A stretch of 64,000 nucleotides of DNA from a bacterium (GTDB lineage: Bacteria > UBA8248): the NCBI GenBank assembly GCA_965218885.1, contig OZ244713.1, forward strand, positions 2,104,638-2,168,637. Direction: 5' to 3'. Of this stretch, positions 1 to 15,010 are shown piece after piece. The translations under genes were made by a program, and so were the position numbers. How positions within the stretch are numbered: position 1 is the stretch's first letter; every line of letters starts with the position of its first letter. The notes under the pieces were generated by a model. It was given only the letters and a program-made list of their open reading frames with translations. It was not told the origin of the DNA and made no database searches.

Positions 1-199
1 TCACTATCCTCTAATTTGGCGTTTACGCACACGCACAGGATTTCTGTTGACACGGAGAGTGAATTTTGATAGAGGAAAGTTCTCTGGGCTTTCCTTTATC
101 AAAACCAACAATCCGGGTCTGATTCATCCCCATTTGGGGGGGTCGGCCCTCCCCACTAGGGCCAGACGTTAATTATACCACTTCCACAACTCTGGGGGT

Positions 200-1270
200 C
201 AAGGGTGAATTTCACTATCACGCCCACGACTTGACGGAAAATAACTCACGACCTAGATTCAGGTAGACCACCCGTTTTACGGGAATGTGCATTGTCTGCA
301 ATTCGCATTCCATCCTAAACGGAGGTCTCCCGTGACAATCATTGAATTACTCGAGATGTTCCCGGATGAACCTACTGCGCGAAAGTGGTTTGAAGAAATC
401 CGCTGGCCTGGCGGAGAGCGCTTCTGCCCTCTCTGCGGAAGCGTGAGAACCACGCACGTCCACAACGAAAAACCCCTGCCTTATCGGTGCCTCGACTGCC
501 GACAGTTTTTCAGCATTCGGTCAGAAACCCCGATGCACCGAAGCAAGGTCCCGCTCCACAAGTGGGCTGCCGCGATATACCTGATGTCCACGGCCGTCAA
601 GGGGATCTCGAGCATCCGGCTCCACCGGTATATCGGCGTCACCCAGCGGACCGCGTGGTTCATGTTGCACCGCATCCGTGAGGGTTGGCTCAAGGGTGAC
701 GATCTGATGAGCGGTCCGGTCGAATTGGACGAGAGCTATATCGGGGGCAAGGAACGGAACAAGCACGCGAACAAGAAGTTGCGTCCGGGCGGTGGCGGAG
801 CCGGAAAGGTCGTGCTCCTCTGTATGCGCGATCGCGGAACGGAAACCATCCGTTCGGAACCGACCAAGGTATACGGCGAATGGGGATCCGGTTTGGACGC
901 CATGCAGTTGCGCGGCTTCGTGCGGCGCAATGCCGAAGCTGGAGCAACGCTCTTTACCGACAACAACCGCTCATATCGCCGGTTGCGCGAGTACAAGCAT
1001 TCCTACGTGACGCACAGCCGCGGCGAGTACGTTCGCGGCGACACGCACGTCAACGGATGCGAGTCGTTCTTCGCACTGTTCAAGAGAGGGTTTTTGGGAC
1101 CTATCATCAGATGAGCGTCAAGCATCTGCACAGATATTTGAATGAATTTGTCGGCAGATCGAATTCGAGGAAAATGGACACTATTCACCAGATGAAGGCT
1201 CTTGCTGGCGGGTGCGAAGGACGGCGTTTGACTTGGAAACAACTCACGTCATAAGTGATCATAAATTTAT
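200..1270 (+). mobile_element. IS1595-family (ISXO2-like) insertion sequence carrying the transposase below. The ends are approximate and inverted repeats were not identified.
   Basis: It contains a recognisable IS1595 transposase. The GC content drops sharply immediately to the right. The stop codon of the adjacent minus-strand gene lies within ~13 nt of the transposase stop. Confidence 0.45.
287..1254 (+). pseudogene. IS1595-family transposase that is frameshifted; the two ORFs 287-1114 and 880-1254 join with a -1 shift around 1095-1110.
   Basis: The N-terminal region has a zinc-ribbon-like CPLCGS...CLDCRQ motif and the core reads ...ESYIGGKERNKH... The C-terminal GTYHQMSVKHLHRYLNEFVGRSN motif, typical of ISXO2-like transposases, is found in the other frame after the KRGF/GTYH junction. 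The shift lies at a T5/G3 run, gggtttttgggacc. Confidence 0.7.
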
Positions 1271-1670
1271 GATTTCAATCTGTCCCCTAGCCTTTCGATT
1301 AACTCATCGACGGATGTTTCGTTCAGATCTGATTGTTCCTCTAGATCAATTTCCCACAATGGCACATAAATTCCTGTAATCACTTCACGTTTCCTTGACT
1401 CAATGAGTTTTTGATTGTGAGTTATAATGGTTTCCATGATTTTTACGATTTGCTTGATCTCTCTATGGAAGCCTGCCAAATATATGAATCTAATGTCGTC
1501 TTGAGGGAAATTTTCCGTTGGCATTGGTTCAGTGTCCAGCATTTGGATAAGCCTAGCATCTCGTTCTTTTGGTTTTTGTGATGAAGCTAAAAGCCACCCC
1601 AGAATGTCCTGCTGGGCTTTCAGTCTTCCTTCTAATTCCGCGAATTTTTGACCAGATAGGCTCACCATCT
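1267..1670 (-). CDS. Hypothetical protein of ~134 aa in an AT-rich cassette. The longest ORF runs to 1803, but the likely start is MVSLSGQKF.
   Basis: It is an ORF in a low-GC region and co-oriented with the downstream-facing peptidase gene. I recognise no domain. Confidence 0.4.
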
Positions 1671-1931
1671 CGTATCCTCCGGTTTTGGGTTTTAACGCTG
1701 AGAGGTCGCCTCCCACTATGGGAGGCGACCTCTTTGGTTCGTTCGCAATGTTCGATGTTCTCTTGGTTCGACTCGTTCGTACTCCGTGCTGTTCTGGCCT
1801 CACGACTCATTCAGACAATAGCTTAACTCGCACTTTTAGGCTTGGTTGCTACACCCTTTCCGCCAGTAGAACTTGTTCCACGTTCCATTTTTTGATAGGG
1901 ATATACGAGCTTTTGTGGACGGTTTTTAATG

Positions 1932-2792
1932 TCAGATATCCTCTGCTTGTTGGTTTGTTGGCTGTTGGCCGACATGATCGGTCTCCATTGGGTTTAGTGA
2001 TGCGGGATAGTAATGCTTTCGCTTAATCCACTTAAATCCTTCATGCTTCGTAACTGTTGCAATGTCGGTTTCGCCTCCAACGATATTCGCTAGCGGCAAA
2101 AATGAAAAATACTTCTTTGTCAAGTCTACTAGAAAATCAGCTAGATTTATAGCATCTTGAACCGGCATTGCGGGATTCACCAAGGGAGTGTTCGATCTAG
2201 CAGCGTATTCCTCAATGATTGAATCAACTGTATTCTTAGGCAAATTATGTTTTTCTAAAGTCTCATATAAAATGTTTAGCTCAGTACCATAGATTAAACG
2301 CGATATCGCACTTTGCTGACCACCCCAAATTATGTCACTCATATCTGGACCCAGCATAAGCAACGGCTTTCTTAGTGCCCCGTCAAGAATAGAAATTTGC
2401 CATATTTCACCTTGGGCATCATCAGAGCCATAGCCTCCAATCCAAAAATTAAAATTAGAATTCCCTGGGGGAGGATTTAGTTCTTTGTATTTTTGCTCGA
2501 AAAATTTATGTGATTTTTCAGCAATTTCCTCAATGCTGTAATTAGAATTATCAAGGCTTTCTGTCAATTCTAACCTTAAATCCTTAGCCAAGTTGCTGAT
2601 GGACGCGGGACCGAAGTTCCCCATGCCCGCGGTCATTGCAACGACAGGAAGTTTTTTGTGCAGGTTGAATACCTTAATGCCGTATTCCCATATATTGGCG
2701 ACAGTTCCAGGCTGATCACTTAATAAGGTCGATGCGCTATCTGCTGCAAAAACGATGCAGTTATAGACTTTAACGCCAACACATACGGTCAT
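1932..2792 (-). CDS. Standalone HslV/20S-proteasome-like Ntn threonine peptidase (T1 family-like) with a ~100 aa C-terminal extension.
   Basis: The N-terminus MTVCVGVKVYNCIVFAADSAST places Thr immediately after the initiator Met. An Asp sits 16 residues later (as proteasome Asp17) and a Lys follows in GIKV (as Lys33). The GMGNFG Gly-rich segment matches the proteasome beta fold pattern. No HslU-like ATPase is adjacent. Confidence 0.5.
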   Translation of the reverse strand: MTVCVGVKVYNCIVFAADSASTLLSDQPGTVANIWEYGIKVFNLHKKLPVVAMTAGMGNFGPASISNLAKDLRLELTESLDNSNYSIEEIAEKSHKFFEQKYKELNPPPGNSNFNFWIGGYGSDDAQGEIWQISILDGALRKPLLMLGPDMSDIIWGGQQSAISRLIYGTELNILYETLEKHNLPKNTVDSIIEEYAARSNTPLVNPAMPVQDAINLADFLVDLTKKYFSFLPLANIVGGETDIATVTKHEGFKWIKRKHYYPASLNPMETDHVGQQPTNQQAEDI

Positions 2793-3210
2793 TATCGACT
2801 CCCGAATTCTGCGCTGATTTCATCAAGAAGGTTTTGTATGATGTTCGTGGGCGAGAAGCGCGAAAAATTTCTTTCTGTCTCCTATGGTTTCGAGTACACG
2901 GATCCTGCCACCTGCACAAAAAGAGTGTCAAGCTTACTTCTGGGTATTCTTGGAACATGCAAGATTGGATAAGCTTAACACCTACACCTTCCCGGCCCCA
3001 AAAGCCCCAATCGCTTGTGGATGCATGAAAACGCCTCCCACTTCCGAATAACCAGGGCCACAGAATCGGACATGAATGCTCCGTGTGTTCCTTTCCTGAT
3101 TGAAGGAACCAGTTCCGTCAACGATTAGCTCGGACCAGCGCAGGTCCTGAAATCTCGCGCCCGTATTGAGTTTGTAAATGCCCTTGAACGAAACGTCTAG
3201 ATCGTTTCAG

Positions 3211-3849
3211 CACACGTCATAGGTCAGGGGCGCGGCTATCGCCCTGACGAGCTTGAAGCGCATGCTGGCGTACTCGAGCATCGGACATGCGGGCTACGTG
3301 CTGATGGGCGTGGTGGCCACCATGAGCGTTGTGGACGGCAAGGTGACCTTCACATCGATAGGCATCAGCGCGGTGACTTTTTACCTTCTCGCCTACCTGT
3401 TCACGAACCTGGGAGCCTTCGGCATGTTGATTCTCGTGTGCCGGGAGGGCTACCGGGGAGACAACATCGAGGACTGGAGGGGAATCGGCCAAGCCCATCC
3501 CTGGGCGGGGATGGCCTTCGTGGTGTTCCTGCTATCGCTCGGCGGCATTCCGCCGACGGCCGGCTTCGTGGGCAAGCTCTACCTGTTCGCCGCGGCGGTG
3601 CAAAACGAGTATTACTGGCTCGCCGCTATCGGGCTCCTCATGAGCGCGGTTTCGATGTACTACTACGGGCGCATCATGATGGTGATGTTCATGGAGAACA
3701 GGGGAGAGAGCCAGGAGGTGATGAGTCTTTCGAGCGCGCCTTCTCTGTTTTTCGCGCTGGTGGTGCTGGTGGTGGCGACCCTGCTGCTGGGCATCTTCCC
3801 GGGCAGCTTCCTCGACGCGGCGAAGGGCACCGTCGCCGGGTTCATATAG
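3211..3849 (+). pseudogene. nuoN: 5'-truncated NADH-quinone oxidoreductase subunit N (NuoN/ND2 family) fragment. Only the C-terminal ~210 aa are present.
   Basis: ELKRMLAYSSIGHAGYVLMGV... followed by several TM helices is characteristic of the NuoN C-terminal half. The frame opens only at 3211, after a TAG. Upstream DNA is non-homologous AT-rich cassette DNA. Confidence 0.7.
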
Positions 3850-4819
3850 AAACCACACACGACATATAAAGCAGTTACGCCGGCCTCTCGCTCTTACTGA
3901 CCGAGGAGGGAAGAGTCCGATTTTGCGGAATCGGCGCGCTTCATTTCAGGAGCGAACCCCTTGTCGGCCTCGTCTCATGGATTGCGGCTTGCCGTATTGA
4001 AGATGCGGTTACGCAGGAGAACAGGGTGGATTTGCAATCCACTCTTCCGGTTCCATTTCGACCCAAGGGTCAGGTCTTCCGAGAAGGGAAACCCGGGCTT
4101 TTTGAGCAAACCGGCGGTCTGTTTTCCACGCGGCCTCACCACCGCACAATCACTCCCTGCTCGGTCGGGATTGACCCCGCATTTGCCGTATCGGTGAAAT
4201 CTCAAGGTTCGTTATGGTGTGCGCGCACGTGGCGACGCTCACCCAAGTCTTCTCCGAAGCGGCTTCGAGGAGGAGCGAAGGACGGGGTCGCCGGGTTCAT
4301 TCAGAAGTGATGAAACTCAATTTAATACAAAAAATAATATCGATAAAATTAGATAAAATAGCGTGGTTATTCGATAAATTAACGTGGTTTTTCTGAAAAA
4401 TAACGAAGCCTTCAGGATGCGTTCTGCGGGCGTTGTTTTGCGTTATTGGCATTATTTTGGTATTTGAGTCGATCACCCGGATCTCAAGATTGACATTTTG
4501 TCAGAGGCGAATCGCCTATTCCCGAAAAATGGTCAAAGCATGAAGCTGCGCGCCGGAACCCGGAGGCATTTTTACGGGATTTTCCGTACCGAGCAGGTCT
4601 TATATCCTACTGATATGTCTTTGGTTACAGGATTCGCTGATTATCTGCTGGAAACAGGCCTTGTTTGGCATGATTCGTGCATTATATAGGGATGTGAACC
4701 TTTTGCCCTCAATGGGCGCCTTTAGCAGAGGAGCCTTTTCTCCCCGGTGGTCAGTTGAAGGGTCCCCCGATGCTGATTCACTGACATCTCGCCGAATGAT
4801 TCGCTGTTTTTGAGCGAAT

Positions 4820-4862
4820 TCCTTCCAAAATGGGGCATGTCCTTAGGGGCGTGCCCCAAGTC
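4820..4862 (-). terminator. Possible intrinsic terminator downstream of the HAD gene.
   Basis: Minus-strand GGGGCACGCCCCTAAGGACATGCCCC followed by ATTTTGG. The stem is imperfect. Confidence 0.3.
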
Positions 4863-4863
4863 T

Positions 4864-5448
4864 TTATTTATCAAGGAGTTGTTCGAGCAAGGCCGGCGCT
4901 TCCAGTAAGGACGGGAGGGTCAAATCGCTAGGAATGAAGGAATATTCCGACAGATGAACCGACAACATTCCGGCCGTCTTGGCGGCCATCATATCGTATT
5001 TGCCGTCCCCGATGACGATGCATTTTCCGGGCGATACGCCGATTGCCTCGGCTCCTGCGAGCAGGGGCCTCGGGTCCGGCTTCCAATAACCCATATCCCG
5101 GGTGATCAGAACATCGAACGAGATATTGATTTTTTCCGCCATTTTCAGAACATGCCGCTCCGCGTTGTTCGTCACGACCCCGAAGGGGATTCTTTTCGTT
5201 CGCAGATACGCAACCAACTCGTGCGCGCCGTCGTTGGCTTCGGCCATGTCGGCGGCTTTAAGTTCATGTATTTCAAGGATATTCGATATCTCATGCGCAC
5301 GTTCGGGAGAGAGTGTGGGGAGGTGATCCAGAATAGAAATGTCTCCATCGACCAATCCCATCTCCTCTTTCATCGTGGGCCAGTCAAAGGCGGGTTTCGT
5401 GAGGGTACCATCAAAATCAAGCAACACACCCTCCATGGCTCGTTTCAT
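4864..5448 (-). CDS. HAD-superfamily hydrolase (phosphatase-like).
   Basis: It has the LLDFDGTL motif I, a VVTNN motif and the GDGKYD motif IV. A GAGGAAG RBS precedes the ATG at 5448. Confidence 0.75.
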   Translation of the reverse strand: MKRAMEGVLLDFDGTLTKPAFDWPTMKEEMGLVDGDISILDHLPTLSPERAHEISNILEIHELKAADMAEANDGAHELVAYLRTKRIPFGVVTNNAERHVLKMAEKINISFDVLITRDMGYWKPDPRPLLAGAEAIGVSPGKCIVIGDGKYDMMAAKTAGMLSVHLSEYSFIPSDLTLPSLLEAPALLEQLLDK

Positions 5449-5458
5449 ATTTGCTTCC

Positions 5459-6472
5459 TCACAGCACTTTTGAAATTTCATCGGAATCAAATCGTTGAAG
5501 CGGAGAGGTTTTCCCGCCGCGTTGAATCATCACACCAGATTCAGGCGGGCATAATTTGCCGATACGAACACCCATCGCGCCCGTCGTTATGAGCGTTTCC
5601 CGCACGATTTCTTCTCCTTCGGCTGTAACCGCCAGTAAAAGCGCTCCTGATGTAATGACGCCCAAGGGGTCGAGTCCCAATGCTTCGCAAATCTTTTCCC
5701 CTTCAAAAGAGATGGGGATTTGACTCTCCTCCACGATTGCCCCCAAGCCTGCGGCTTCCGCCAATTCGTGAATACCTGTGGCGAGACCGCCCTCGGTCGG
5801 GTCGTGCATCGCGTGCACGCGGCCCGTACCGGCCGCCGCCAGAGCTTGCGACACTATACTGATGCCGGGAGAAACCAGATATCTTTTTGCATTCTCCAGT
5901 ATCTCGATATCCATGATGCTTTTCAGAAAATCGTATTTTGCATCCGCCAGGATCGCCGTTCCTTCAACAGGTATGGGGCGCGTAAGCAGAATCAAGTCAT
6001 CCGTACAAGCGTCCGCGCCTCGTATCAAATTCTCCTTGGATACTTCACCCAGCATGTGGCCCGAAAGAATCGGAAATTCCAATCCCGATGTAATCTCCGT
6101 ATGACCGCCGCATAAGGTAATGCCCAATTCAGTACAGGTATCTCCCACTTCTTCCCAAATACGGTTTATCATCGCCTCATCAGCGCGTCCTTCCGGCAAA
6201 AGGAGAGTCATCAGGAACCACAGAGGGGTAGCTCCCATACAAACGATATCGTTTGCGTTCACATGAACGGCGTAGCGTCCGATATGATGTTCCACAAACG
6301 TGATGGGATCTGATTTTACGACGAGATAACGATCTCCCATGTCGATAACGGCCGCGTCTTCTCCAACCTGTGGACCAACGATGAGGCGCGGGTGAGGATT
6401 CGCGTTTTTGAGTAAAGCGTCCAGCACGTCCGGCGGAAGTTTACCTACGGGAAATGAAGATTTATTCGTCAT
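5459..6472 (-). CDS. AIR-synthase-related protein of the PurM/HypE/ThiL superfamily (HypE-like).
   Basis: It shows the PurM-like N-domain pattern (GEDAAVIDMGDRYLVVKSDPITF) and the C-domain pattern (DPTEGGLATGIHELAEAAGLG). The start is chosen at MTNKSS. Confidence 0.55.
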   Translation of the reverse strand: MTNKSSFPVGKLPPDVLDALLKNANPHPRLIVGPQVGEDAAVIDMGDRYLVVKSDPITFVEHHIGRYAVHVNANDIVCMGATPLWFLMTLLLPEGRADEAMINRIWEEVGDTCTELGITLCGGHTEITSGLEFPILSGHMLGEVSKENLIRGADACTDDLILLTRPIPVEGTAILADAKYDFLKSIMDIEILENAKRYLVSPGISIVSQALAAAGTGRVHAMHDPTEGGLATGIHELAEAAGLGAIVEESQIPISFEGEKICEALGLDPLGVITSGALLLAVTAEGEEIVRETLITTGAMGVRIGKLCPPESGVMIQRGGKTSPLQRFDSDEISKVL

Positions 6473-6665
6473 CCTCTTACCATAAGTGGGAGGTTCAGCA
6501 ACATCAAGCCAGATATCTGGAGCACAAGGCGTTTCAATGTTGACGCCCGGGGTGGAGCGTTTTAGAATCCCGTCTTCCTGATAAAGGCATGGAAACACTT
6601 GCCTTTTACGGAAAATGGGCCGATAAGGAACAACCCTTGGTTGTCTGTCGATTGCTCCACATACT

Positions 6666-6741
<76 letters not shown>

Positions 6742-6768
6742 GAAAGTCTGTAAGAAATTTAGTCCGCG

Positions 6769-7332
6769 TCAATCCGTATTCGTGATTCCTTCTAATACAA
6801 GGTTTTTTCCGTTTATTTCGACAGTGCTCGTGAGTGGAACCGCCGTCTGAACCATTTGCTCGGCATAGCAGCCTTGCTTCGCCAATCGGATGATGTTCAG
6901 GATTTTCTCTTCCGCTTCGCTCGATTCCACCTTGAAATGCGTACGCACCCTTCGGCACCCTGAATTTACATCGCCCTTGAGGACGGAGCCTTTCAGAAAA
7001 TAATCGAATTCAACGCGGCAAGTGGCTTTCGCGAAGGTGGTTTTCGTCATATGGGCGTACCGCCCAAGCTGAGTCAACAGTCAGAATCCGACTCCCATGG
7101 CGATGTATGTGAGAGGCTGCGGATATCTGTCCTCTCCTCCGATGCGGGGTGGTTCGTCGCTAAAGACCTCAAAATGCCGGAAGCGTCCGATTTTGAGTTG
7201 TCCATCGTCCATCGTCTCGGTTTCTGCGAGCATGGTGATCTCATAACCGTCTTTTGGAAGTTCGGGTTTATCAATTGGTCTCTCGCCGGGCACGGTGCTC
7301 TCATGCCAGGGATAGTTTATGCTTTCCACCAT
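6769..7332 (-). CDS. OsmC/Ohr-family (peroxiredoxin-like) protein interrupted by a single in-frame TGA at 7081-7083. It is either a candidate selenoprotein with Sec in place of the first catalytic Cys, or a nonsense pseudogene.
   Basis: ORFs 7081-7332 and 6769-7077 lie in the same frame and are separated only by TGA: ...PLTYIAMGVGF-(TGA)-LLTQLGRYAHMTKTTFAKATCRVEF... The TGA falls where OsmC/YhfA-like proteins have their resolving/peroxidatic Cys (L..G.C..M motif). A second Cys (KATCRV) is retained. A GGGCG-GUA-CGCCC hairpin lies 16-30 nt downstream of the UGA. Confidence 0.5.
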
Positions 7333-7399
7333 ATTTGGTTGTCCTCCAGGGTTTGGACGGGAATGATTCTACTCTGAGAAATGATTGTTTATATGGGTA

Positions 7400-8149
7400 T
7401 TATTCCCATTTCAGCACACAGATGTAACCCTCTTGCGGAATGCTGACGAGCGGTTCCAAGTCTTCCTCTTTTTTGTGCATTTGGATGGTTTTCAAGTGTG
7501 CATACGCCTCCCAGAGCATGTGGCGAAACGTGTATTCCAGGTTGAAATGAAATAGTTCCGTATCCTCCGGGTCAATCCACACGCCTGTGCGATGGGCTTT
7601 GAGGGTGACGTTCTCGCGCCATTGGCGGACATTCTCGCCGGTTCCGGGCCGTATCATGCCCCGCGGCGCGCGCTCGGATATCTTTCTCCCGTCCCGGATG
7701 GATTCGGTCGTCTCCGCTCCCAGCACCTCCCAGGCGAGGGCGAACGAATCCCGCATGACGTCGATAAGGTCTTGAATTTGTGGGCAGTATTCGTCTTTCA
7801 TGATTCGCCCATCGAAGCGCTCGAACAACCCCTTATCGCGCGGAAGCTCATCAGTGAAGAGGATAGCTCCCCAGCGAATGAGCAGCCACCGGTAGGGCAG
7901 AGAGGCCACGTGGCTCACCTGATCCTGGATGGACCAGGAGCCCCAACTCTTCCCCTCTCTCGTTCTCCGCAATGTCCCCTCGGGGAGTCCTTCCGTTTCT
8001 TTTGCATATAATTCAACGACTTGCGGAATTTCGGGGAAAAGCGAGCGCGCTGAATTCTCTCGTTCCTGCATCTTCTTGATTCCTCCGGGCTGGTGTATGA
8101 TGCTCCGCAGTACTGGCCTGAATCGGGCCGGGGATCTCTCGGAAAACAC
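7400..8149 (-). CDS. DinB/YfiT-like (DinB_2 superfamily) putative metal-dependent hydrolase. This is the full-length copy.
   Basis: ORF of 249 aa. The SWSIQDQVSHVASLPYRWLL region resembles the DinB-family helix motif. A second partial copy lies at 11440-11775. Confidence 0.35.
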   Translation of the reverse strand: MFSERSPARFRPVLRSIIHQPGGIKKMQERENSARSLFPEIPQVVELYAKETEGLPEGTLRRTREGKSWGSWSIQDQVSHVASLPYRWLLIRWGAILFTDELPRDKGLFERFDGRIMKDEYCPQIQDLIDVMRDSFALAWEVLGAETTESIRDGRKISERAPRGMIRPGTGENVRQWRENVTLKAHRTGVWIDPEDTELFHFNLEYTFRHMLWEAYAHLKTIQMHKKEEDLEPLVSIPQEGYICVLKWE

Positions 8150-8226
8150 CTCGTTAATTTTCAGAAAAACCCCGTCAATTTATCGAAAAACCCCGTGAAT
8201 TTATCGATATTTTCAGAAATTCCTTA
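8150..8226. promoter_or_regulatory. Tandem 20-bp direct repeat (aaaaaccccgtSaatttatcga x2 plus a partial third copy) immediately upstream of the DinB-like gene. It is a putative operator/promoter element and is duplicated at ~11776-11852.
   Basis: It reads ...tttcagaaaaaccccgtcaatttatcgaaaaaccccgtgaatttatcgatattttcag... in both copies. Confidence 0.4.
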
Positions 8227-9050
8227 TTCTCGAACGCGCCGATTCGCTTCGCAATCATACACGCGCGCGCCTTGAGTCCGATGACGGCAAATGCGGGGAA
8301 ATTAGCCCCTCCGCCGCATCCCGGTGGGTCCGTGTCGGACGATTGCGCAGCCATCTTCCAAAGTCTGATTCGCAACACCTTGCTTACGGTTACGTTCCTG
8401 CGCCCCACAACGTTCACTCAGGAACCACCTCCGATGTGGCGTGCCCCATGAGTTCATTCGAGAAATCACAGAACCTGAGATAGAAATTATATTCGAGAAT
8501 GGATATAAAGCGCAGCCTCCATGGACGCCCTCTTAAGCCCGAGGAAGTTCGGCGCTTCACGGATATGGCGTGGTGGATTGCGAGGATATTGATGTCAATG
8601 GGGAATGATACCGAGGATACACCTCAGGTTTTTTTTGTAGGGGCGGTTCGTCTCTAACCGGGGAAAGATTGGCTGCCTATCTAAACAACCACCTCCCCTG
8701 ATATCATCGCCATCCCGTTCAGATTGTCGTCATTCGCGATTTCGACCACGAACCGGTTCGCCCCTCGTAACCCGTCAGCCTGTCCTTGACGTGGGTGGTG
8801 TAATCGGGCCGGGCCTGCTCGCCGTCGTTGATGACGTCGACTCCCGCCTCCACCTGTTTTCCACGTCGTCTTCTATCGCGCGCGCCACGGCGGCATCGAG
8901 ATCACCGGAATCAGCACCTCCTTCCTCCTGGGCCGGCAACAAATCGACCACTTACTGGGGGCGCGGCAGGCTTCCCGTGTGGGTCGTGGGTATTCTCTCG
9001 GTGCTGCGCTTCATCGTTCGATGCTCCCCTTTCTTCTCAAAAACCGGCCC
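8180..9050 (-). pseudogene. Degenerate cobalamin-independent methionine synthase (MetE C-terminal domain)-like gene remnant in multiple frames. The duplicated copy lies at ~11810-12690.
   Basis: Frame fragments resemble MetE-family motifs: LPAQEEGGADSGDLDVAVARAIEDDVEKRVEAGVDVINDGEQARPD...THVKDRLTGYEG and, further 3', FAVIGLKARA. The reading frame is broken repeatedly. Confidence 0.3.
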
Positions 9051-9752
9051 TTAGCGTTTGCCCCATTTTTTCTTCTCCACCGTCTCTTCTTCTATCTCAT
9101 AGAAGCCCTCGAGGCCGATCAAGTCCTCTACCCCCTGGCGGGCGGCCATGAACTCCTCATGCGTCATGCCCGTGTAATCGCCCGTCTTGCGCACTTCCTG
9201 TAAGGCTTTTTTCATGAAATGGAAACTGACGGTGAGATACAAAATGGCGCGCGATGCCGCCGCCGCCGCCCCGAAAGAGCCGCACGTGCCCGTGGCCCGC
9301 CATCCCTTCAGGCGGTGCGCGGCCATGTTGACCGCCATGCCCACCCGCGCCGCCGTCTCATAACCCGCCGATACCGCTTCTAGAAACGTTTTTCCGTCCG
9401 TTCCCCCAAGTTCACAGGCGGCCAGAGCCGCCGGGATTACGGCCACGCCGGGGTGAAGCTTGGATTTACGGTGCAGATCGTCAAAGATCAGGACGTGGGC
9501 AAGGATGCCGTTCGTAAGAGCAGCGGTGGCCGGGTCGGCCCCGAAATCCCGGCCGATGATCGTACAGGGCCCGTTTCCCGAAGCCGCTTCGGCGGCGCGC
9601 AGGTGAACGCCCGCCTCCTCGGTTCCCAAAGCCCCCAGCGCGCAGCCCAGGTGATCAAGCAGGCAGAACTTCAGAAAATCGGGTATCTCCTTGGGCATAT
9701 CCTCGAGGCGCAGCCCCGACATGAATCCGGCAAGTTGTTTCGAGCGATTCAT
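9051..9752 (-). pseudogene. Chimeric ORF in which the N-terminal ~170 aa of MmgE/PrpD (copy of 14513-15010) is fused in frame to the C-terminal ~65 aa of the PrpB-like gene (copy of 12674-12882). It is the product of an internal deletion in a duplicated segment.
   Basis: The N-terminus [16 protein letters not shown]...GTCGSFGAAAAASRA is ~90% identical to 13628-15010. The C-terminus ILYLTVSFHFMKKALQEVRKTGDYTGMTHEEF...KKKWGKR is identical to the end of 12674-13585. Confidence 0.7.
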
Positions 9753-9779
9753 CGTATCCCTTGGGTGCGATGACGTCTC

Positions 9780-10152
9780 GGCGCAGTGCGCGCACGCGAA
9801 CGGGGCCGACGGGACACTCAAGGCGCACTACAGCAACTGGCGCTGGGTGGTGGCGTCCTGCCGTGATGGTTTCGTGCATACGGCGCCTGTGGGTTCGTTT
9901 CGGGCGAATGGATTCGGATTGCACGATATGCATGGAAATGTATGGGAATGGGTAGTGGATTGTTGGAATGTAAATTATAAAGGCGGCCGGCGCGCCGGCC
10001 ACGGCCCCGGAAAAATAGCATTTGGAGAAGATTGCATTGATGTTTTAACATGGAAACGTTACAATACGGATAAATACTATTGCGATAAAGAAAATGTCCC
10101 ACCTGCATGCTGTACGAGAAAGGTTTCCGGGCGTGCGAACGCCCGTACATAG
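9780..10152 (+). pseudogene. FGE-sulfatase (formylglycine-generating enzyme/SUMF1-like) domain. Only the C-terminal fragment is present.
   Basis: [22 protein letters not shown] is the hallmark FGE-domain motif. The ORF's 5' portion overlaps the antisense strand of the chimeric prpD remnant and has no FGE N-terminal region. Confidence 0.55.
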
Positions 10153-10176
10153 GGTGTGATGCCATAGGGAGGAGCC

Positions 10177-11385
10177 ATGATGCGCATATACTCTTCAAAC
10201 CGGGTCTTGCTCACCTTCTTATGCGCCGCCCTCGCGTTTGTTGCGGCCTCGTTGTGGGGCATGGATTCAGCGCTTGCAGAGGTGCGCAACCCCAAGGGCG
10301 TAGCGGTGATCGTGGGCAACAAGGACTATGAGCACCGCGACATCCCCGACGTCTCTTTCGCCCACCGGGACGCGGACGCCTTTAAGCGCTACGCCGTGGA
10401 CGTGCTGGGTTTCGATCTCAAGAACATCATCGACCTTCGAGACGCTAGGCGCAGAAGGATGTTTGACGCGCTGGGCAGCGAGCGTTCGCCACAGGGGGAG
10501 TTGTGGAGCTACCTCGATCCCGACGGTGGTTCGGACGTCGTGGTGTTCTACTCGGGCCACGGTGTTCCGGGGATGAAGGACAAGCGCGGCTACCTGCTGC
10601 CCGTGGACGGGAGTCCGCACGCGGCGGAAGAAGACGGTTATCCGATCGACCTCCTCTACAAGAACCTGGGGAGTCTCAAGGAAGCGCGTTCGGTGGTGGT
10701 GTATGTGGACGCGTGTTTTTCGGGGAGCAGCGCTGGAGGGAACCTGACGCGTTCGGCGAGTCCGGTCTATGTGCGCGCGGCGCTGCCGAAGGAACTATCG
10801 AAGAAAGTGACGGCGCTGACGGCGGCGAGCGGCAAGCAGTTGGCCTCGTGGGATGATCGTGCGCGTCACGGGTTGTTCACGCATCATCTTCTGGATGCGC
10901 TCTACGGCAAGGGAGATGACGACAAGGACGGCAAGGTGACGGCCAAAGAGGCGAAGAGGTATCTGGACAAGCGGATGACGCGGGCGGCGCGGCGTCAATA
11001 CCGGCGGGTGCAGAATGCGTCGCTGATGGGCTTGAAAGATGCCGTGTTGTCGGTGGCTCGATTCCCGGAGCGCCAGTCTCTGGGCGGCGGGGCGAAGGCC
11101 GTAAAGAAAAAGACAGAAAAAGTCACAACGCTGCTGAAGTCGCCCGTCGTGGACAATGAGCCTGCCCTCGACAGGGAGAAGAAGGTACTGGTGCAGCGCG
11201 GCCTTGGTTCCCTGAAATTCGACCCGGGTCCGGCCGACGGGGCGTTCGGACCGAAGACGCGCGAAGCCATCCGTGGGTGGCAGAAGGCGAAGGGCTACGA
11301 AGAGACGGGCCGCCTCACACAAGAGCAGGCGGATGCGCTGGCCGCTGCAGGAAAATCCGGGAGGAGCGCTCCCTCGGGCGGGTGA
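10177..11385 (+). CDS. Secreted caspase-like (peptidase C14) domain protein with a C-terminal peptidoglycan-binding (PG_binding_1-like) domain.
   Basis: It has an N-terminal signal peptide (LLTFLCAALAFVAASLWG). The caspase core has the His site YSGHG and the Cys site YVDACFSG. The C-terminus GLGSLKFDPGPADGAFGPKTREAIRGWQKAKGYEETGRLT matches the PG-binding repeat. Confidence 0.7.
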   Translation: MMRIYSSNRVLLTFLCAALAFVAASLWGMDSALAEVRNPKGVAVIVGNKDYEHRDIPDVSFAHRDADAFKRYAVDVLGFDLKNIIDLRDARRRRMFDALGSERSPQGELWSYLDPDGGSDVVVFYSGHGVPGMKDKRGYLLPVDGSPHAAEEDGYPIDLLYKNLGSLKEARSVVVYVDACFSGSSAGGNLTRSASPVYVRAALPKELSKKVTALTAASGKQLASWDDRARHGLFTHHLLDALYGKGDDDKDGKVTAKEAKRYLDKRMTRAARRQYRRVQNASLMGLKDAVLSVARFPERQSLGGGAKAVKKKTEKVTTLLKSPVVDNEPALDREKKVLVQRGLGSLKFDPGPADGAFGPKTREAIRGWQKAKGYEETGRLTQEQADALAAAGKSGRSAPSGG

Positions 11386-13627: not shown

Positions 13628-15010
13628 TTATACTTTTTGAGTTTTCTCGAGGGCAACGAGTTCCTTGAGCTGCGAGAGATTGGGCTGCTCCTCGACACTC
13701 ATCACGAAATCGATGACGGCGTCCTGACTCCCCCGTACAAGCACGGGTGCCGTAAGATCACGGAATTTCTCGACGACCGCCTCCTCGGCGGGCCTGTTTT
13801 CCGGATCGCCCCGGCAGTATTCGACGCGCTCGTGGATGTGCTCGCCATTTTTCAGGTGAAACGTCACGTCGCACGGCTTCTTCTCGTGGTAGATGGCCGT
13901 GAGTTCCGGGTCGGCCTCCACCTGCGTGGCTTTGGCGAATCGCACCAGTTCCGGGTCGTATAAGGATTCGCCCTCGAGATCGGACGGCGAAACCTTGCCC
14001 CGCCTCAGCACAACCGCCATGGCGTATCCCATGTGAAAGATCATCTTGGCGGGCGGACCCGGCTCAAAATCCCAGCCGCACTGGATTTTCGTAATCTCAC
14101 CGGCCCGAATCGAGGTGCGCTCGACGTCCTCGAGCCTCAGGCCATGCTTTTGGCGGGCAAAGAGCGCGGCGTCGATGCCCGTCTGGCTGCTGTGGCAGGT
14201 GGGGTAGAGTTTGATGGAGGTGTCCATGAGCCAATACCGATCGCCCAATCCGTCGGTGAGAATCCCAGGGTTAGGGTCCCTGGTCGTCATGGAGAAAAAG
14301 CCCCCATCGACCGCTTCCAGGGGATCGGATGAGCCTCTGAAGCCTCCCCCGGCCAGAAGCGCCGAGACCACTCCGTTTCTGGCGGCCGTTCCCGCCGCCA
14401 GGTAAAGCTCCATCCCTGAGCCTTGCGTGAAGGCGAAATTACCCGAAGCCTGCCCCGCCGCCGCTGCGATGGCGTGGTGCAGGGTTTCGGACGAGTGATT
14501 CATGGCGCGCGATGCGGCGACGGCGGCCCCGAAAGAGCCGCACGTGCCCGTGGCCCGCCATCCCTTCAGGCGATGCTCGGCCATGTTGACCGCCATGCCT
14601 AAGCGCGCCGCCGTTTCATAACCCGCCGATATCGCTTCTAGAAACGTTTTTCCGTCCGCTCCCCCGAGTTCGCAGGCGGCCAGAGCCGCCGGGATCACGG
14701 CCACGCCGGGGTGAAGCTTGGACTTGCGATGCAGATCGTCAAAGATCAGGAGGTGGGAAAGGATGCCGTTCGTGAGAGCGGCGGTGGCCGGGTCGGCCCC
14801 GAAATCCCGGCCGATGATCATACAGGGCCCGTTTCCCGAAGCCGCTTCGGCGGCGCGCAGGTGAACGCCCGCCTCCTCGGTTCCCAAAGCCCCCAATGCG
14901 CAGCCTACGTGATCCAGCAGGCAGAACTTCAGAAAATCGGGTATCTCCCTGGGCGTATCCGCCAGGCGCAGCCCCGACATGAATCCGGCAAGTTGTTTCG
15001 AGCGATTCAT
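13628..15010 (-). CDS. MmgE/PrpD-family protein (2-methylcitrate dehydratase-like).
   Basis: 460 aa with the typical MmgE/PrpD N-domain and C-domain arrangement. It lies upstream of the PrpB-like gene. Confidence 0.7.
   Translation of the reverse strand: MNRSKQLAGFMSGLRLADTPREIPDFLKFCLLDHVGCALGALGTEEAGVHLRAAEAASGNGPCMIIGRDFGADPATAALTNGILSHLLIFDDLHRKSKLHPGVAVIPAALAACELGGADGKTFLEAISAGYETAARLGMAVNMAEHRLKGWRATGTCGSFGAAVAASRAMNHSSETLHHAIAAAAGQASGNFAFTQGSGMELYLAAGTAARNGVVSALLAGGGFRGSSDPLEAVDGGFFSMTTRDPNPGILTDGLGDRYWLMDTSIKLYPTCHSSQTGIDAALFARQKHGLRLEDVERTSIRAGEITKIQCGWDFEPGPPAKMIFHMGYAMAVVLRRGKVSPSDLEGESLYDPELVRFAKATQVEADPELTAIYHEKKPCDVTFHLKNGEHIHERVEYCRGDPENRPAEEAVVEKFRDLTAPVLVRGSQDAVIDFVMSVEEQPNLSQLKELVALEKTQKV

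What the first reader, a model, noticed from the sequence alone, without database searches (positions are those of the whole stretch)
1267..2800. AT-rich two-gene cassette encoding a standalone HslV/proteasome-like threonine peptidase plus a small unknown protein, wedged between an IS1595 element and a broken nuoN
The ~1.5 kb block is conspicuously lower in GC than the rest of the window, which points to horizontal acquisition. It encodes a 286-aa protein whose N-terminus (Met-Thr-VCVGVK...FAADSAST, with Asp and Lys at proteasome-like spacing) fits the Ntn threonine-peptidase fold, but with a ~100 aa C-terminal extension and no HslU-type unfoldase nearby. The second gene is a 134-aa orphan protein. 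A compact peptidase-plus-partner cassette on an IS-associated island is the typical architecture of toxin-like or phage-defence modules. I do not recognise it as a named system.
Basis: partly seen in the sequence, partly recalled or inferred. Interest (0 to 1): 0.75.

Follow-up and report, generated by a model that had tools for sequence, protein, structure and literature searches.

The report
Mobile proteasome-like peptidase with hidden micro-protein partner

Summary

The interpretation needs correcting in three places.
- The 134-aa ORF is a lineage-specific orphan. It has 2 homologues among 5.8 billion proteins, and one of those carries an in-frame stop.
- The conserved partner is a 50-aa ORF at 1823..1975(-). 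Its start overlaps the 3' end of the peptidase gene and it carries a P-x-Y-x-Y-Q motif. Of 142 non-redundant family loci, 94% have such a small downstream ORF, and 65% of these ORFs have homologues at other loci (controls 2.6%).
- The extra length comes from internal insertions, not a 100-aa C-terminal extension.

In three other genomes the pair lies inside IS1595-family units bounded by 20-25 bp inverted repeats. Two of these have perfect 8-bp target duplications. The cassette has lower GC than its flanks in 51 of 55 genomes.

No defence association was found, and the function is untested. My best reading is a mobile protease plus dedicated small-protein ligand (substrate or inhibitor). I rate it a new variant of a known kind, of moderately high interest.

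The parts
1932..2792 (-). 286-aa proteasome-beta-fold N-terminal-threonine peptidase with no propeptide (Met-Thr start). Thr2, Asp18 and Lys40 form the catalytic set, with Gly56 conserved. It has a two-helix insertion between H3 and H4 and a conserved C-terminal motif, KHEGFKWIKRKHYYP..LNP.ETDH.
1823..1975 (-). 50-aa micro-ORF (MSANSQQTNKQRISDIKNRPQKLVYPYQKMERGTSSTGGKGVATKPKSAS). It overlaps the peptidase 3' end by 44 nt in the +1 frame. A GGAG lies 7 nt before its ATG, inside the peptidase's ETDH codons. It is polar and basic (10 K+R, 2 D+E) and carries the family motif P-x-Y-x-Y-Q. This is the conserved partner gene.
   Evidence: ORF, sequence. Homologous ORFs sit at the same position in other loci. 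Motif statistics: 38/84 loci against 2/304 controls. Start offsets of -7 or -10 and an SD-like sequence in 40/42. The ORF is intact with a conserved core in L084 despite 67-87% DNA identity. Pooled test: 134/142 loci have such an ORF, and 87/134 have homologues against 4/153 controls. No Pfam or PHROG family.
1267..1671 (-). 134-aa ORF, found in the protein collection only as a 91-aa product (1267..1542). It is a lineage-specific orphan and not part of the conserved cassette; whether it codes is uncertain.
   Evidence: Good SD. Only 2 homologues among 5.8 billion proteins: a 100%-identical 91-aa entry seen on the same 3.9-Mb contig as the window's peptidase (presumably this genome's own) and L084 at 96%. 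L084 has an in-frame TAG at codon 20. Absent from the 83 genome and assembly loci compared. No Pfam, PHROG or PADLOC hit. AF2 single-sequence model pLDDT 58, all helical, uninformative.
1701..1733 (.). 15-bp perfect palindrome (AGAGGTCGCCTCCCA tag TGGGAGGCGACCTCT) about 90 nt after the micro-ORF stop. It may mark the operon end or be a repeat element. It lacks a U-tract.
   Evidence: Inverted repeat I3. A 10-bp stem is retained in L084 with a changed loop. Not called as an intrinsic terminator. No Rfam hit.
287..1254 (+). IS1595-family transposase gene, convergent with the cassette. It is split by one frameshift at about 1096-1099 in a T5 run, which could be a pseudogene or an assembly error. 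No terminal inverted repeats or target duplication are recognisable in this window.
   Evidence: Pfam DDE_Tnp_IS1595 and Zn_ribbon_IS1595. tblastn with intact relatives shows frame 2 up to 1099 and frame 1 from 1096. IR/TSD searches were negative.
2793..3224 (.). 432-bp spacer upstream of the peptidase, ending at the nuoN break. Its length is similar to the 385-506 nt between the transposon end and the peptidase start in L080, L054 and L009. It holds no conserved ORF; the 62-aa ORF 2770..2958 has no homologue.
   Evidence: (88-93% identical to L084 as far as 2973).
3225..3849 (+). 3' fragment of nuoN (about the last 200 codons). The 5' part is absent from the window.
   Evidence: Pfam Proton_antipo_M positions 171-292 of 294. 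The frame opens at 3223 after a stop. In L084 the nuoN 3' end lies on the other side of the cassette.

Best explanation
The core of the finding is a two-gene mobile module.

Gene 1 (1932..2792, minus strand) encodes a standalone proteasome-beta-fold Ntn peptidase. Its nucleophile, Thr2, is exposed simply by methionine removal, because there is no propeptide. Asp18 and Lys40 complete the catalytic set. A two-helix insertion between H3 and H4 sits at a site where, according to Fuchs et al. 2021, insertions could prevent stacked double rings.

Gene 2 (1823..1975, minus strand) encodes a 50-aa polar, probably disordered micro-protein. In most family members its ATG lies inside the peptidase's final His-Val codons, with a Shine-Dalgarno in the Glu-Thr-Asp codons, which suggests translational coupling on one mRNA. 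In this window the same arrangement holds, but the overlap is 44 nt.

Shown:
- the fold;
- the conserved catalytic residues;
- the conservation, position and protein-level homology of the micro-ORF across bacteria and archaea;
- different peptidase subclades carrying different small-partner families;
- the compositional foreignness of the pair;
- its carriage as cargo inside IS1595-family transposons with inverted repeats and 8-bp target duplications in other genomes.

Inferred:
- The micro-protein is the peptidase's dedicated ligand.
- Its invariant Tyr-x-Tyr, with alternate residues pointing the same way in an extended strand, docks into the S3/S1 pockets next to Thr1, as proteasome substrates and peptide inhibitors do.
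- It is therefore either cleaved after the second Tyr, or it occupies the site as a substrate-mimic inhibitor that keeps a propeptide-less protease in check.
- Because the pair travels on transposons and prophage ends, it behaves as a self-contained accessory module, possibly addiction- or conflict-type, rather than as housekeeping proteolysis.

In this window the copy sits in an IS-scarred junction: a frameshifted transposase, a broken nuoN and an inserted orphan ORF. Both cassette genes are intact.
For: Fold and active site:
- AF2 model pLDDT 83, pTM 0.81.
- The only PDB sequence hit of the profile is the Anbu N-terminus.
- hhalign puts T2, D18 and K40 on T1, E17 and K33.
- D18, K40 and G56 are invariant and M1/T2 are conserved in at least 90% of 40 sequences.
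- Matches start at residue 1 in most of the 150 best representatives.

Partner gene:
- Window-to-relative DNA homology is limited to 1867-2802.
- Strict Y-x-[YF]-Q occurs in an open downstream frame in 38/84 loci against 2/304 controls.
- The start lies at -7 or -10 nt from the end of the peptidase stop in 29/42, an SD-like sequence is present in 40/42, and the motif sits at a constant ~24 residues from the N-terminus.
- In the pooled test, 134/142 loci have a small downstream ORF (52% at control anchors), and 87/134 of these have homologues at other loci against 4/153 controls. There are at least 13 partner families, each tied to a peptidase subclade.
- L084 keeps a 50-aa ORF with YPYQKME intact, while the neighbouring 134-aa ORF has acquired a stop.

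Mobility:
- L054 and L080 units have 24-25 bp inverted repeats and perfect 8-bp duplications. L009 has a 20-bp inverted repeat.
- The transposase lies downstream and convergent in all 10 loci that have one.
- The gap between the micro-ORF stop and the transposase stop is 2-56 nt, or the two overlap, which leaves no room for an IS end.
- Cassette GC is lower than the flanks in 51/55 loci.
- Relatives occur in 16 IMG/VR contigs, and distant ones sit next to a phage integrase.
- The commonest flanking genes are the IS1595 transposase (6) and phage integrase (4).
Against: - There is no experimental or structural evidence that the two proteins touch.
- The micro-ORF was not among the genes listed for the assembly contigs inspected, and its translation is unproven.
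- In many distant family members (36-42% identity) the downstream ORF lacks the YxYQ motif.
- The secondary proteasome residues do not look conserved on inspecting the sequences. Ser169 aligns to Val238 and Asp166 has no clear equivalent. This is my reading against the Thermoplasma sequence; the hhalign did not cover this half. Hydrolytic competence is therefore assumed.
- The window's own copy has no recognisable transposon ends.
- Only 3 of about 180 loci show clear inverted-repeat-bounded units, and in two of those the peptidase is disrupted or frameshifted.
Confidence: 0.55

Rival explanations
1. This is a toxin-antitoxin or abortive-infection defence module. The propeptide-less protease is a toxin and the labile micro-protein is its antitoxin. 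Phage infection, or loss of the element, removes the micro-protein and frees the protease to cleave host or phage proteins. This is the first reader's idea with the partner corrected, and it is a special case of the best explanation.
For: - A tight, apparently translationally coupled two-gene operon with a fast-evolving small partner.
- Partner families switch between peptidase subclades, as in polymorphic conflict systems.
- The pair is cargo of transposons and is present at prophage ends or next to an integrase.
- The taxonomic distribution is patchy, across bacteria and archaea.
- The cassette is compositionally foreign.
- PemK toxins and RAMA/PDC-S14 proteins are occasional neighbours.
Against: - Neither protein gave a significant PADLOC match (only a 12-bit, E=0.016 hit for the peptidase and none for the 178-aa ORF), and the micro-protein matched no Pfam or PHROG family.
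- Among 148 nearest flanking genes only a handful hit defence models, with no recurrent system.
- Many flanks are housekeeping genes.
- The gene order, enzyme first and small partner second, is not the usual antitoxin-first order (general knowledge).
- There is no DNA-binding domain in the partner for autoregulation.
- No paper in the library links proteasome-like proteins to defence.
Confidence: 0.2
2. This is a maturation system for a small secreted or bioactive peptide. The micro-protein is a precursor and the peptidase its processing enzyme, or a connectase-like transpeptidase. It would cleave at Y-x-Y|Q and release a C-terminal fragment beginning with Gln.
For: - The motif sits at a constant distance (~24 residues) from the N-terminus, like a leader/core boundary.
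- The remainder is hypervariable and the enzyme conserved.
Against: - No modifying enzyme, exporter or immunity gene is conserved nearby.
- The precursor lies downstream of, and appears translationally coupled to, the enzyme. That implies roughly stoichiometric rather than excess production (inference).
- The peptides have no signal sequence or Cys/Ser/Thr-rich core.
Confidence: 0.15
3. One reading: the peptidase works with the 134-aa ORF (1267..1671) as its partner.
For: - The two are adjacent on the same strand, and the ORF has a good Shine-Dalgarno.
- Both ORFs are retained with 96% identity in the related contig L084.
Against: - The ORF has only two homologues among 5.8 billion proteins, and both are recorded as 91 aa.
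- L084 has an in-frame stop at codon 20.
- The ORF is absent from all 83 other genome and assembly loci compared. In the nearest relatives, L001-L004, homology stops at 1867 and a minus-strand SNase-like gene lies there instead.
- It is separated from the operon by a conserved hairpin.
Confidence: 0.03
4. This is a standalone housekeeping or stress protease. The downstream small ORFs are not functional partners and are conserved only as overlapping regulatory or terminator sequence.
For: - Fuchs et al. 2021 found no informative context for any of the new proteasome homologues (PMC8665760, Discussion).
- Many flanking genes are ordinary metabolic genes.
- Gene callers did not list the micro-ORF on the assembly contigs inspected.
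Against: - Conservation is at the amino-acid level across loci whose DNA no longer aligns: 65% against 2.6% in controls.
- The motif is enriched about 70-fold over controls.
- The start codon and SD geometry are conserved.
- The distribution is patchy, the composition foreign, and the pair is transposon cargo.
Confidence: 0.07

Closest known systems
20S proteasome beta subunit (MEROPS family T1; for example Thermoplasma acidophilum PsmB, PDB 1PMA/3C91)
   Different: Identity is only 13-18%, and there is no Pfam PF00227 hit. There is no propeptide, no alpha subunit and no AAA+ partner. It has a longer S2/S3 loop and a two-helix insertion between H3 and H4. Ser169 and Asp166 do not look conserved on inspecting the sequences (not covered by the hhalign). 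It is encoded with a small partner protein and carried on mobile elements.
PMI-type 'proteasome homologs with multiple insertions', most likely PMI-2 (Fuchs, Alva & Lupas 2021, PMC8665760)
   Same: Uncharacterised prokaryotic proteasome homologues without a propeptide. The H3/H4 insertion is reported for PMI-2 to PMI-6. Neither a long pore-loop insertion nor an S3/S4 insertion is present, which fits PMI-2. The spread across Proteobacteria, Firmicutes, Actinobacteria and Euryarchaeota also fits. Distant phage homologues at 24% identity fit the report that PMI-4 occurs in phages.
   Different: Membership could not be tested by sequence, because the representative WP_137109689.1 is not available here. 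That paper states that no informative genomic context was found. The micro-ORF partner and the IS1595 cargo arrangement described here are not in it.
Anbu and HslV (bacterial proteasome homologues)
   Different: HslV is about 175 aa, compact and operonic with the HslU unfoldase. No unfoldase was found here or among the nearest flanking genes of 75 family loci. From general knowledge, Anbu sits in an operon with ATP-grasp and transglutaminase-like genes; no recurrent partner of that kind was seen.
Connectase (Methanocaldococcus MJ0548; PDB 6ZW0)
   Different: Connectase lacks helices H1/H2 and has an S3/S4 insertion (PMC8665760). This protein has H1/H2 and no S3/S4 insertion. Connectase's substrate, MtrA, is a housekeeping protein and is not a co-encoded micro-protein.
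IS1595-family insertion sequences that carry passenger genes (ISNwi1/ISPna2 '+' subgroups in ISfinder; from memory)
   Same: DDE_Tnp_IS1595 plus Zn-ribbon transposase, 8-bp target duplications, ends beginning GGnnATTAT, and extra genes between the transposase and the far inverted repeat.
   Different: I know of no description of a proteasome-like peptidase as IS1595 cargo, and no ISfinder comparison was possible. In this window the element's ends cannot be recognised.
Ump1/POMP proteasome maturation factor (analogy only)
   Same: A small, natively disordered protein that binds inside the nascent proteasome and becomes its first substrate (general knowledge). It is a functional precedent for a small disordered protein dedicated to a proteasome-fold enzyme.
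   Different: No sequence relationship was seen, and Pfam scans of ten micro-proteins matched no family. Ump1 is about 140 aa and eukaryotic, and it is not co-transcribed with a subunit.

Membership tests
Proteasome-like Ntn hydrolases (T1 fold) | Four-layer alpha-beta-beta-alpha fold superimposable on 20S subunits | tested here: met
Proteasome-like Ntn hydrolases (T1 fold) | N-terminal Thr/Ser nucleophile with Asp/Glu17 and Lys33 equivalents | tested here: met
   T2 is conserved in at least 90% of sequences, and D18 and K40 are invariant in 40 sequences. hhalign aligns them to T1, E17 and K33 of Thermoplasma beta (E=0.013, low probability). More distant members have Ser at position 2.
Proteasome-like Ntn hydrolases (T1 fold) | Gly47 oxyanion residue and the Ser129/Asp166/Ser169 support residues | tested here: inconclusive
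   G56 is invariant at the end of S4, but hhalign places it one column from G47. G239-G240 match G170-G171, while Ser169 corresponds to Val238 and Asp166 has no clear equivalent (sequence inspection; this half was not aligned by hhalign).
Proteasome-like Ntn hydrolases (T1 fold) | Recognition by the Pfam Proteasome model (PF00227) or NCBIfam models | tested here: not met
   No significant Pfam, NCBIfam or PADLOC hit. The only PHROG match is phrog_5990, of unknown function.
Proteasome-like Ntn hydrolases (T1 fold) | Peptidase (or transpeptidase) activity | not testable with these tools
   Needs enzyme assays with wild type and T2A.
HslV | Operon or co-occurrence with the HslU AAA+ unfoldase | tested here: not met
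   No AAA+ gene in the 19 kb to the right. No AAA+ family among the most frequent Pfam families of 148 nearest flanking genes of family loci.
HslV | Compact subunit of about 175 aa without insertions, and closest structural neighbour | tested here: not met
PMI-type proteasome homologues (Fuchs et al. 2021) | Insertion between H3 and H4, no propeptide, presence in bacteria and Euryarchaeota | tested here: met
   Extra helices H172-181 and H186-200 lie between H161-168 and H211-230. Matches begin at residue 1. Loci come from Alpha- and Gammaproteobacteria, Actinobacteria, Firmicutes, Acidobacteria, Methanomicrobiales, Archaeoglobi and Asgard archaea. Criteria taken from PMC8665760.
PMI-type proteasome homologues (Fuchs et al. 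2021) | Sequence clustering with a PMI representative (for example WP_137109689.1 for PMI-2) | not testable with these tools
   The representative sequences and the MPI 'proteasome_homologs' HHpred database are not available here. Accessions retrieved for family members did not coincide with the representatives.
Known anti-phage defence or TA systems | Match to a catalogued defence protein model | tested here: not met
   PADLOC gave only a 12-bit hit (E=0.016, homing endonuclease) for the peptidase and nothing for the 178-aa ORF. The micro-protein was not scanned against PADLOC; it matched no Pfam or PHROG family.
Known anti-phage defence or TA systems | Recurrent location in defence islands | tested here: inconclusive
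   Among 148 nearest flanking genes, PADLOC hits are sporadic: PDC-S14/RAMA twice, and single PglX, PD-T4-6-like kinase and MkoA hits. Mobile-element genes are the commonest neighbours.
Known anti-phage defence or TA systems | Toxicity neutralised by the partner, or phage protection | not testable with these tools
   Needs cloning and phage or plasmid-stability assays.
IS1595-family transposon carrying passenger genes | DDE_Tnp_IS1595 plus Zn-ribbon transposase next to the cargo | tested here: met
   Window 287..1254. Ten loci have the transposase downstream and convergent.
IS1595-family transposon carrying passenger genes | Terminal inverted repeats enclosing transposase plus cargo, flanked by an 8-bp target duplication | tested here: met
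   Met in related loci. L054 4028-7721 has a 24-bp inverted repeat and the duplication AAAATTTT. L080 2590-5016 has a 25-bp inverted repeat and the duplication CAATGAAA. L009 5495-10346 has a 20-bp inverted repeat and a 4/8 duplication. Not met for the window's own copy: no inverted repeat or duplication was found.
RiPP biosynthetic cluster | Precursor peptide plus conserved modifying enzyme(s) and exporter | tested here: not met
   No conserved neighbour other than the small ORF.

The most novel reading that the evidence does not exclude
The peptidase and micro-protein pair may be a previously unrecognised class of mobile, self-contained protease module. It would be the first proteasome-fold toxin (or motif-specific processing enzyme or ligase) with a co-encoded, hypervariable small-protein antidote or substrate. 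It would spread between bacteria and archaea as cargo of IS1595 transposons and prophages, and would act in addiction, abortive infection or inter-element conflict. This would assign a biological role to the orphan PMI-type proteasome homologues.
Probability: 0.22. Interest if true: 0.85.

Novelty: new variant of a known kind. Interest (0 to 1): 0.62.

Why it matters
Fuchs et al. (2021) catalogued 22 new prokaryotic proteasome-homologue families. They found no genomic context that hinted at function, and the paper library held no later work characterising them. For the family this window belongs to, three concrete leads now exist.
- An unannotated micro-protein gene overlaps or abuts the peptidase stop codon in 94% of 142 loci. 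Its motif and position are conserved.
- The partner family changes with the peptidase subclade, which is the signature of a co-evolving pair.
- The pair moves as transposon cargo and is compositionally foreign almost everywhere.

Together these turn 'unknown protease' into a directly testable two-component hypothesis, with cultured hosts available. They also illustrate how small ORFs missed by gene callers can hide the partner of a system. If the module proves to be a toxin/antidote or a motif-specific ligase, it would be of interest for mobile-element biology and possibly as a tool, as connectase has become.

Tried and rejected
No docking evidence could be obtained.
2. I looked for natural fusions in ten longer family members. 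None of the tails carries YxYQ.
3. I tested whether short direct repeats at 239-255, 1237-1256 and 3208-3224 are remnants of IS ends. The local alignments are no better than shuffles (z about 1.5-2.5), so I rejected the idea.
4. I searched for the window element's inverted repeats and target duplication, both by exhaustive scan and with the L054, L080 and L009 ends. Nothing credible turned up; the top hits fall inside the peptidase ORF. The same scan found nothing clear in L012, L018, L031, L037 or L015.
5. The 134-aa ORF gave nothing: Pfam, PHROG and PADLOC were empty, only two homologues exist, and the single-sequence AF2 model (pLDDT 58) is too poor for a fold search.
6. Pfam scans of ten micro-proteins gave no family.
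7. Plasmid collection: no hit.
8. The afdb50 fold library was unavailable. The BFVD search gave only weak hits to unnamed phage proteins.
9. The look-up of encoding contigs for the window's own proteins found nothing on record.
10. Rfam and tRNA scans of 1-6000 were empty. The promoter and terminator scans were uninformative.
11. Literature searches for IS1595 passenger genes, proteasome-like defence proteins and follow-ups of Fuchs 2021 found nothing relevant.

Full report
**1. Observation**

The coordinates and ORFs are as reported. ORF 1932..2792(-) encodes 286 aa beginning MTVCVGVKV. ORF 1267..1803(-) is 178 aa from a GTG, or 134 aa from the ATG at 1671, which has a GGAGG 6 nt upstream.

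The 1267-2800 block has 42.2% GC against a window mean of 59.3% (sd 4.3). It is the lowest of all equal-sized windows in the 64 kb.

To the left lies an IS1595-family transposase gene (287..1254). It hits Pfam DDE_Tnp_IS1595 at E=1e-24 plus the Zn ribbon, and it is split by one frameshift at about 1096-1099 in a T5 run. That could be decay or an assembly error.

To the right, after a 432-bp spacer, lies only the last ~200 codons of nuoN. The frame opens at 3223, and the match covers Proton_antipo_M positions 171-292.

The next 15 kb encode ordinary metabolic and transport genes and no AAA+ unfoldase.

**2. The 286-aa protein**

Pfam, NCBIfam and PADLOC do not recognise it, and phmmer against PDB finds nothing.

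It nevertheless has more than 1199 homologues, all unnamed. A profile search of 1.84 billion cluster representatives finds 303 clusters at E<=1e-30 and 4427 at E<=1e-3. Nearly all are 270-300 aa, single-domain, and match from residue 1.

In a 40-sequence alignment D18, K40, G56, G119-G120, G158, G240 and a C-terminal W-x-x-RK-x-YY are invariant. M1, T2 and G239 are conserved in at least 90%.

An AF2 model built on that alignment is confident (pLDDT 83, pTM 0.81).
- Anbu scores 15.0, HslV 11.8, BPH 10.3 and connectase 9.8.
- The family profile's only PDB sequence hit is the N-terminus of a designed Anbu protein.
- hhalign against the Thermoplasma beta subunit, whose sequence I verified against 3C91/1PMA, puts T2, D18 and K40 on T1, E17 and K33.

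The extra ~90 residues are a longer, disordered S2/S3 loop (23-36), two extra helices between H3 and H4 (about 170-200), and a ~28-residue tail. They are not a 100-aa C-terminal extension.

**3. Relation to the literature**

Fuchs, Alva and Lupas (2021; PMC8665760) described 22 new proteasome-homologue families.

The insertion pattern here is H3/H4 only, with no long pore-loop or S3/S4 insertion and no propeptide. The taxonomic spread covers Proteobacteria, Firmicutes, Actinobacteria and Euryarchaeota. Both fit their PMI group, and PMI-2 best. I could not test this by sequence.

They state that they found no genomic context or co-occurrence suggestive of function. I found no later paper in the library that characterises these families or links proteasome-like proteins to defence or to insertion sequences.

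**4. The real partner gene**

DNA similarity between the window and its nearest relatives (L001-L004, 74%) covers only window 1867-2802.

Homologous small ORFs sit at the same place in other loci. In 42 non-redundant loci:
- The small ORF's ATG lies 7 nt (19 loci) or 10 nt (10 loci) before the last base of the peptidase stop. The typical junction is CATGTCTGA, read as His-Val-stop in one frame and Met-Ser in the other.
- An SD-like sequence precedes it in 40 of 42.
- A motif [M/L]-P-x-Y-x-Y-Q lies about 24 residues from the N-terminus.
- G-[S/F]-G-S often follows 8 residues later.

The strict motif Y-x-[YF]-Q occurs in an open downstream frame in 38 of 84 loci, against 2 of 304 control regions.

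After adding 16 viral and 80 metagenome loci, I pooled everything into 142 non-redundant testable loci.
- 134 (94%) have a same-strand ORF of 35-130 aa starting within -50..+25 nt of the stop, against 52% at control anchors.
- 87 of those 134 small ORFs have a BLASTP homologue at another locus, against 4 of 153 controls.
- The largest family (41 loci, including the window) is the YxYQ type.
- At least a dozen other partner families exist, each confined to one peptidase subclade.

The related contig L084 keeps a 50-aa ORF with 40 of 50 identical residues and YPYQKME intact, although the DNA there is only 67-87% identical.

The micro-proteins are polar: 73% disorder-promoting residues. The window's copy has 10 K+R and 2 D+E. 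None matches a Pfam family.

**5. The 134-aa ORF**

It has two homologues among 5.8 billion proteins. One is a 100%-identical 91-aa entry seen on the same 3.9-Mb contig as the window's peptidase, so presumably from this genome. The other is L084's copy at 96% identity. L084's copy has an in-frame TAG at codon 20.

It is absent from the 83 other genome and assembly loci compared, has no domain hit, and folds with low confidence. A 15-bp perfect palindrome at 1701-1733, whose stem is conserved in L084, separates it from the operon.

It is a lineage-specific insert between the cassette and the transposase, not the cassette's partner.

**6. Mobility**

Ten loci have an IS1595-family transposase within 3.5 kb, and it is always downstream and convergent. 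In several of them its stop lies 2-56 nt from, or overlaps, the micro-ORF stop. That leaves no room for an IS end.

Three loci show that the pair is cargo.

| Locus | Unit | Length | Terminal inverted repeat | 8-bp target duplication |
|---|---|---|---|---|
| L054 | 4028-7721 | 3694 bp | 24 bp, GGGAATTATATCG(C/A)AAAGTGCCGA | AAAATTTT, perfect |
| L080 | 2590-5016 | 2427 bp | 25 bp, identical arms | CAATGAAA, perfect |
| L009 | 5495-10346 | 4852 bp | 20 bp | 4 of 8 match |

The internal order is: inverted repeat, 385-506 nt, peptidase, micro-ORF, reversed transposase, inverted repeat.

In L054 a second IS1595-like element has since inserted into the peptidase. L080's copy reads in three frames, which could be decay or long-read error. 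L009's copy is intact.

Other evidence of mobility:
- A second transposase lineage (L012, L018, L031, L037) keeps the same geometry, together with a ~145-aa upstream ORF and a DUF6471 gene. I found no clear inverted repeats there.
- Across 55 loci with long flanks, the cassette is on average 10 GC points below its surroundings. It is lower by at least 3 points in 51 loci and higher in 1.
- The most frequent nearest neighbours among 148 flanking genes are the IS1595 transposase (6) and phage integrase (4). The rest are heterogeneous, many of them housekeeping.
- PADLOC hits among the flanks are sporadic.
- There are no plasmid hits.
- Distant homologues (24% identity) occur in temperate Pseudomonas phages directly after the integrase gene.
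- 16 IMG/VR contigs carry closer relatives, several with the micro-ORF.

**7. The window's own copy**

No inverted repeat or target duplication is recognisable. The transposase is frameshifted, the orphan ORF lies between the transposase and the cassette, and nuoN is truncated. The 432-bp spacer between the peptidase and the nuoN break matches the distance from cargo to inverted repeat in the intact units, which is suggestive only.

In L084 the same cassette lies next to a truncated transposase that abuts the 3' end of nuoN on the opposite side. The region has therefore been rearranged. I could not reconstruct the history.

**8. Mechanism**

Shown:
- the fold and conserved catalytic residues;
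- the absence of a propeptide;
- a conserved, apparently translationally coupled small partner;
- partner family switching with peptidase subclade;
- transposon carriage.

Inferred:
- The micro-protein is the enzyme's dedicated ligand.
- Alternate conserved tyrosines (Y-x-Y) are what an extended strand would present to the S3 and S1 pockets of a proteasome-type active site. This is the established binding mode of proteasome substrates and peptide inhibitors.
- The micro-protein is therefore either cleaved after the second Tyr or acts as a substrate-mimic inhibitor of a protease that has no propeptide to restrain it.
- The H3/H4 insertion may preclude stacked rings, as Fuchs et al. argue.

Whether the biological role is addiction or abortive infection, peptide maturation, or something else is open. 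The rival explanations section gives graded probabilities for these.

**9. Verdict**

The peptidase family is probably already catalogued as uncharacterised. New here are the hidden micro-protein partner, its co-variation with the enzyme, and the IS1595 cargo arrangement. I rate this a new variant of a known kind, with interest about 0.6.

Noticed in passing
window 10177..11385 (+): A 402-aa protein combines a caspase domain (Peptidase_C14, E=2.6e-13) with a C-terminal peptidoglycan-binding domain (PG_binding_1). This is an unusual bacterial caspase-like architecture.
   Followed up: no
window 9051..9821 (-) and 13628..15010 (-): Two MmgE/PrpD genes are present. The first covers only the N-terminal domain (256 aa) and may be a truncated duplicate or pseudogene. 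Together with the broken nuoN and the frameshifted transposase, this hints at a genome with many decaying genes or many long-read indel errors.
   Followed up: no
window 1701-1733: A 15-bp perfect palindrome lies between the micro-ORF and the orphan ORF. A 10-bp stem is conserved in contig L084 with a different loop. It lacks a U-tract and has no Rfam match.
   Followed up: partly
L084 1-2248 compared with window 917-2973 and 3819-3863: A related contig shows mosaic identity. The peptidase core is 54-75% identical, but its two ends, the micro-ORF start and the orphan ORF are 87-98% identical, which suggests recombination within the cassette. In L084 the nuoN 3' end lies beside the truncated transposase, on the opposite side from its position in the window.
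   Followed up: partly
L157, L161, L166, L167, L169 and five further loci; L144/L152/L162; L092/L139/L168; L046/L049/L138/L155: More distant peptidase subclades carry other conserved downstream small proteins. Examples are a ~90-aa type ending ...ELDxEIDEMRGR (10 loci), a ~73-aa type ending ...YDELWKELATR, a ~45-aa NIQNYKIIIT type, and an ~87-aa type ending ...REALTELAKW.
   Followed up: partly
L085 (Pseudomonas phage LPPA33, OR188720.1) 3887-4927: A distant homologue lies directly after the phage integrase. Its annotated start (4067) appears too far downstream: the reading frame contains MLWRAPL-TINIAIATYDS, which implies a 7-residue propeptide before the catalytic Thr.
   Followed up: partly
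L012 8172-8435, L018 8979-9218, L031 8168-8407: A DUF6471 gene (79-87 aa, E down to 3e-31) sits just beyond the start of the IS1595-family transposase in three sphingomonad or alphaproteobacterial loci. A ~145-aa unknown ORF lies upstream of the peptidase in four. This may be further cargo of that IS lineage.
   Followed up: partly
L054 4790-6000: A second IS1595-like transposase (312 aa, Zn-ribbon motif) has inserted into the peptidase gene that is itself cargo of an IS1595-family unit, giving nested insertions.
   Followed up: partly
L001 7190-8004 (also L002-L004): In the closest relatives (76% identity) the peptidase is preceded by a RAMA-domain protein (165 aa; it also hits PADLOC PDC-S14) and a 97-aa ORF overlapping the peptidase start. 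Neither is present in the window.
   Followed up: no
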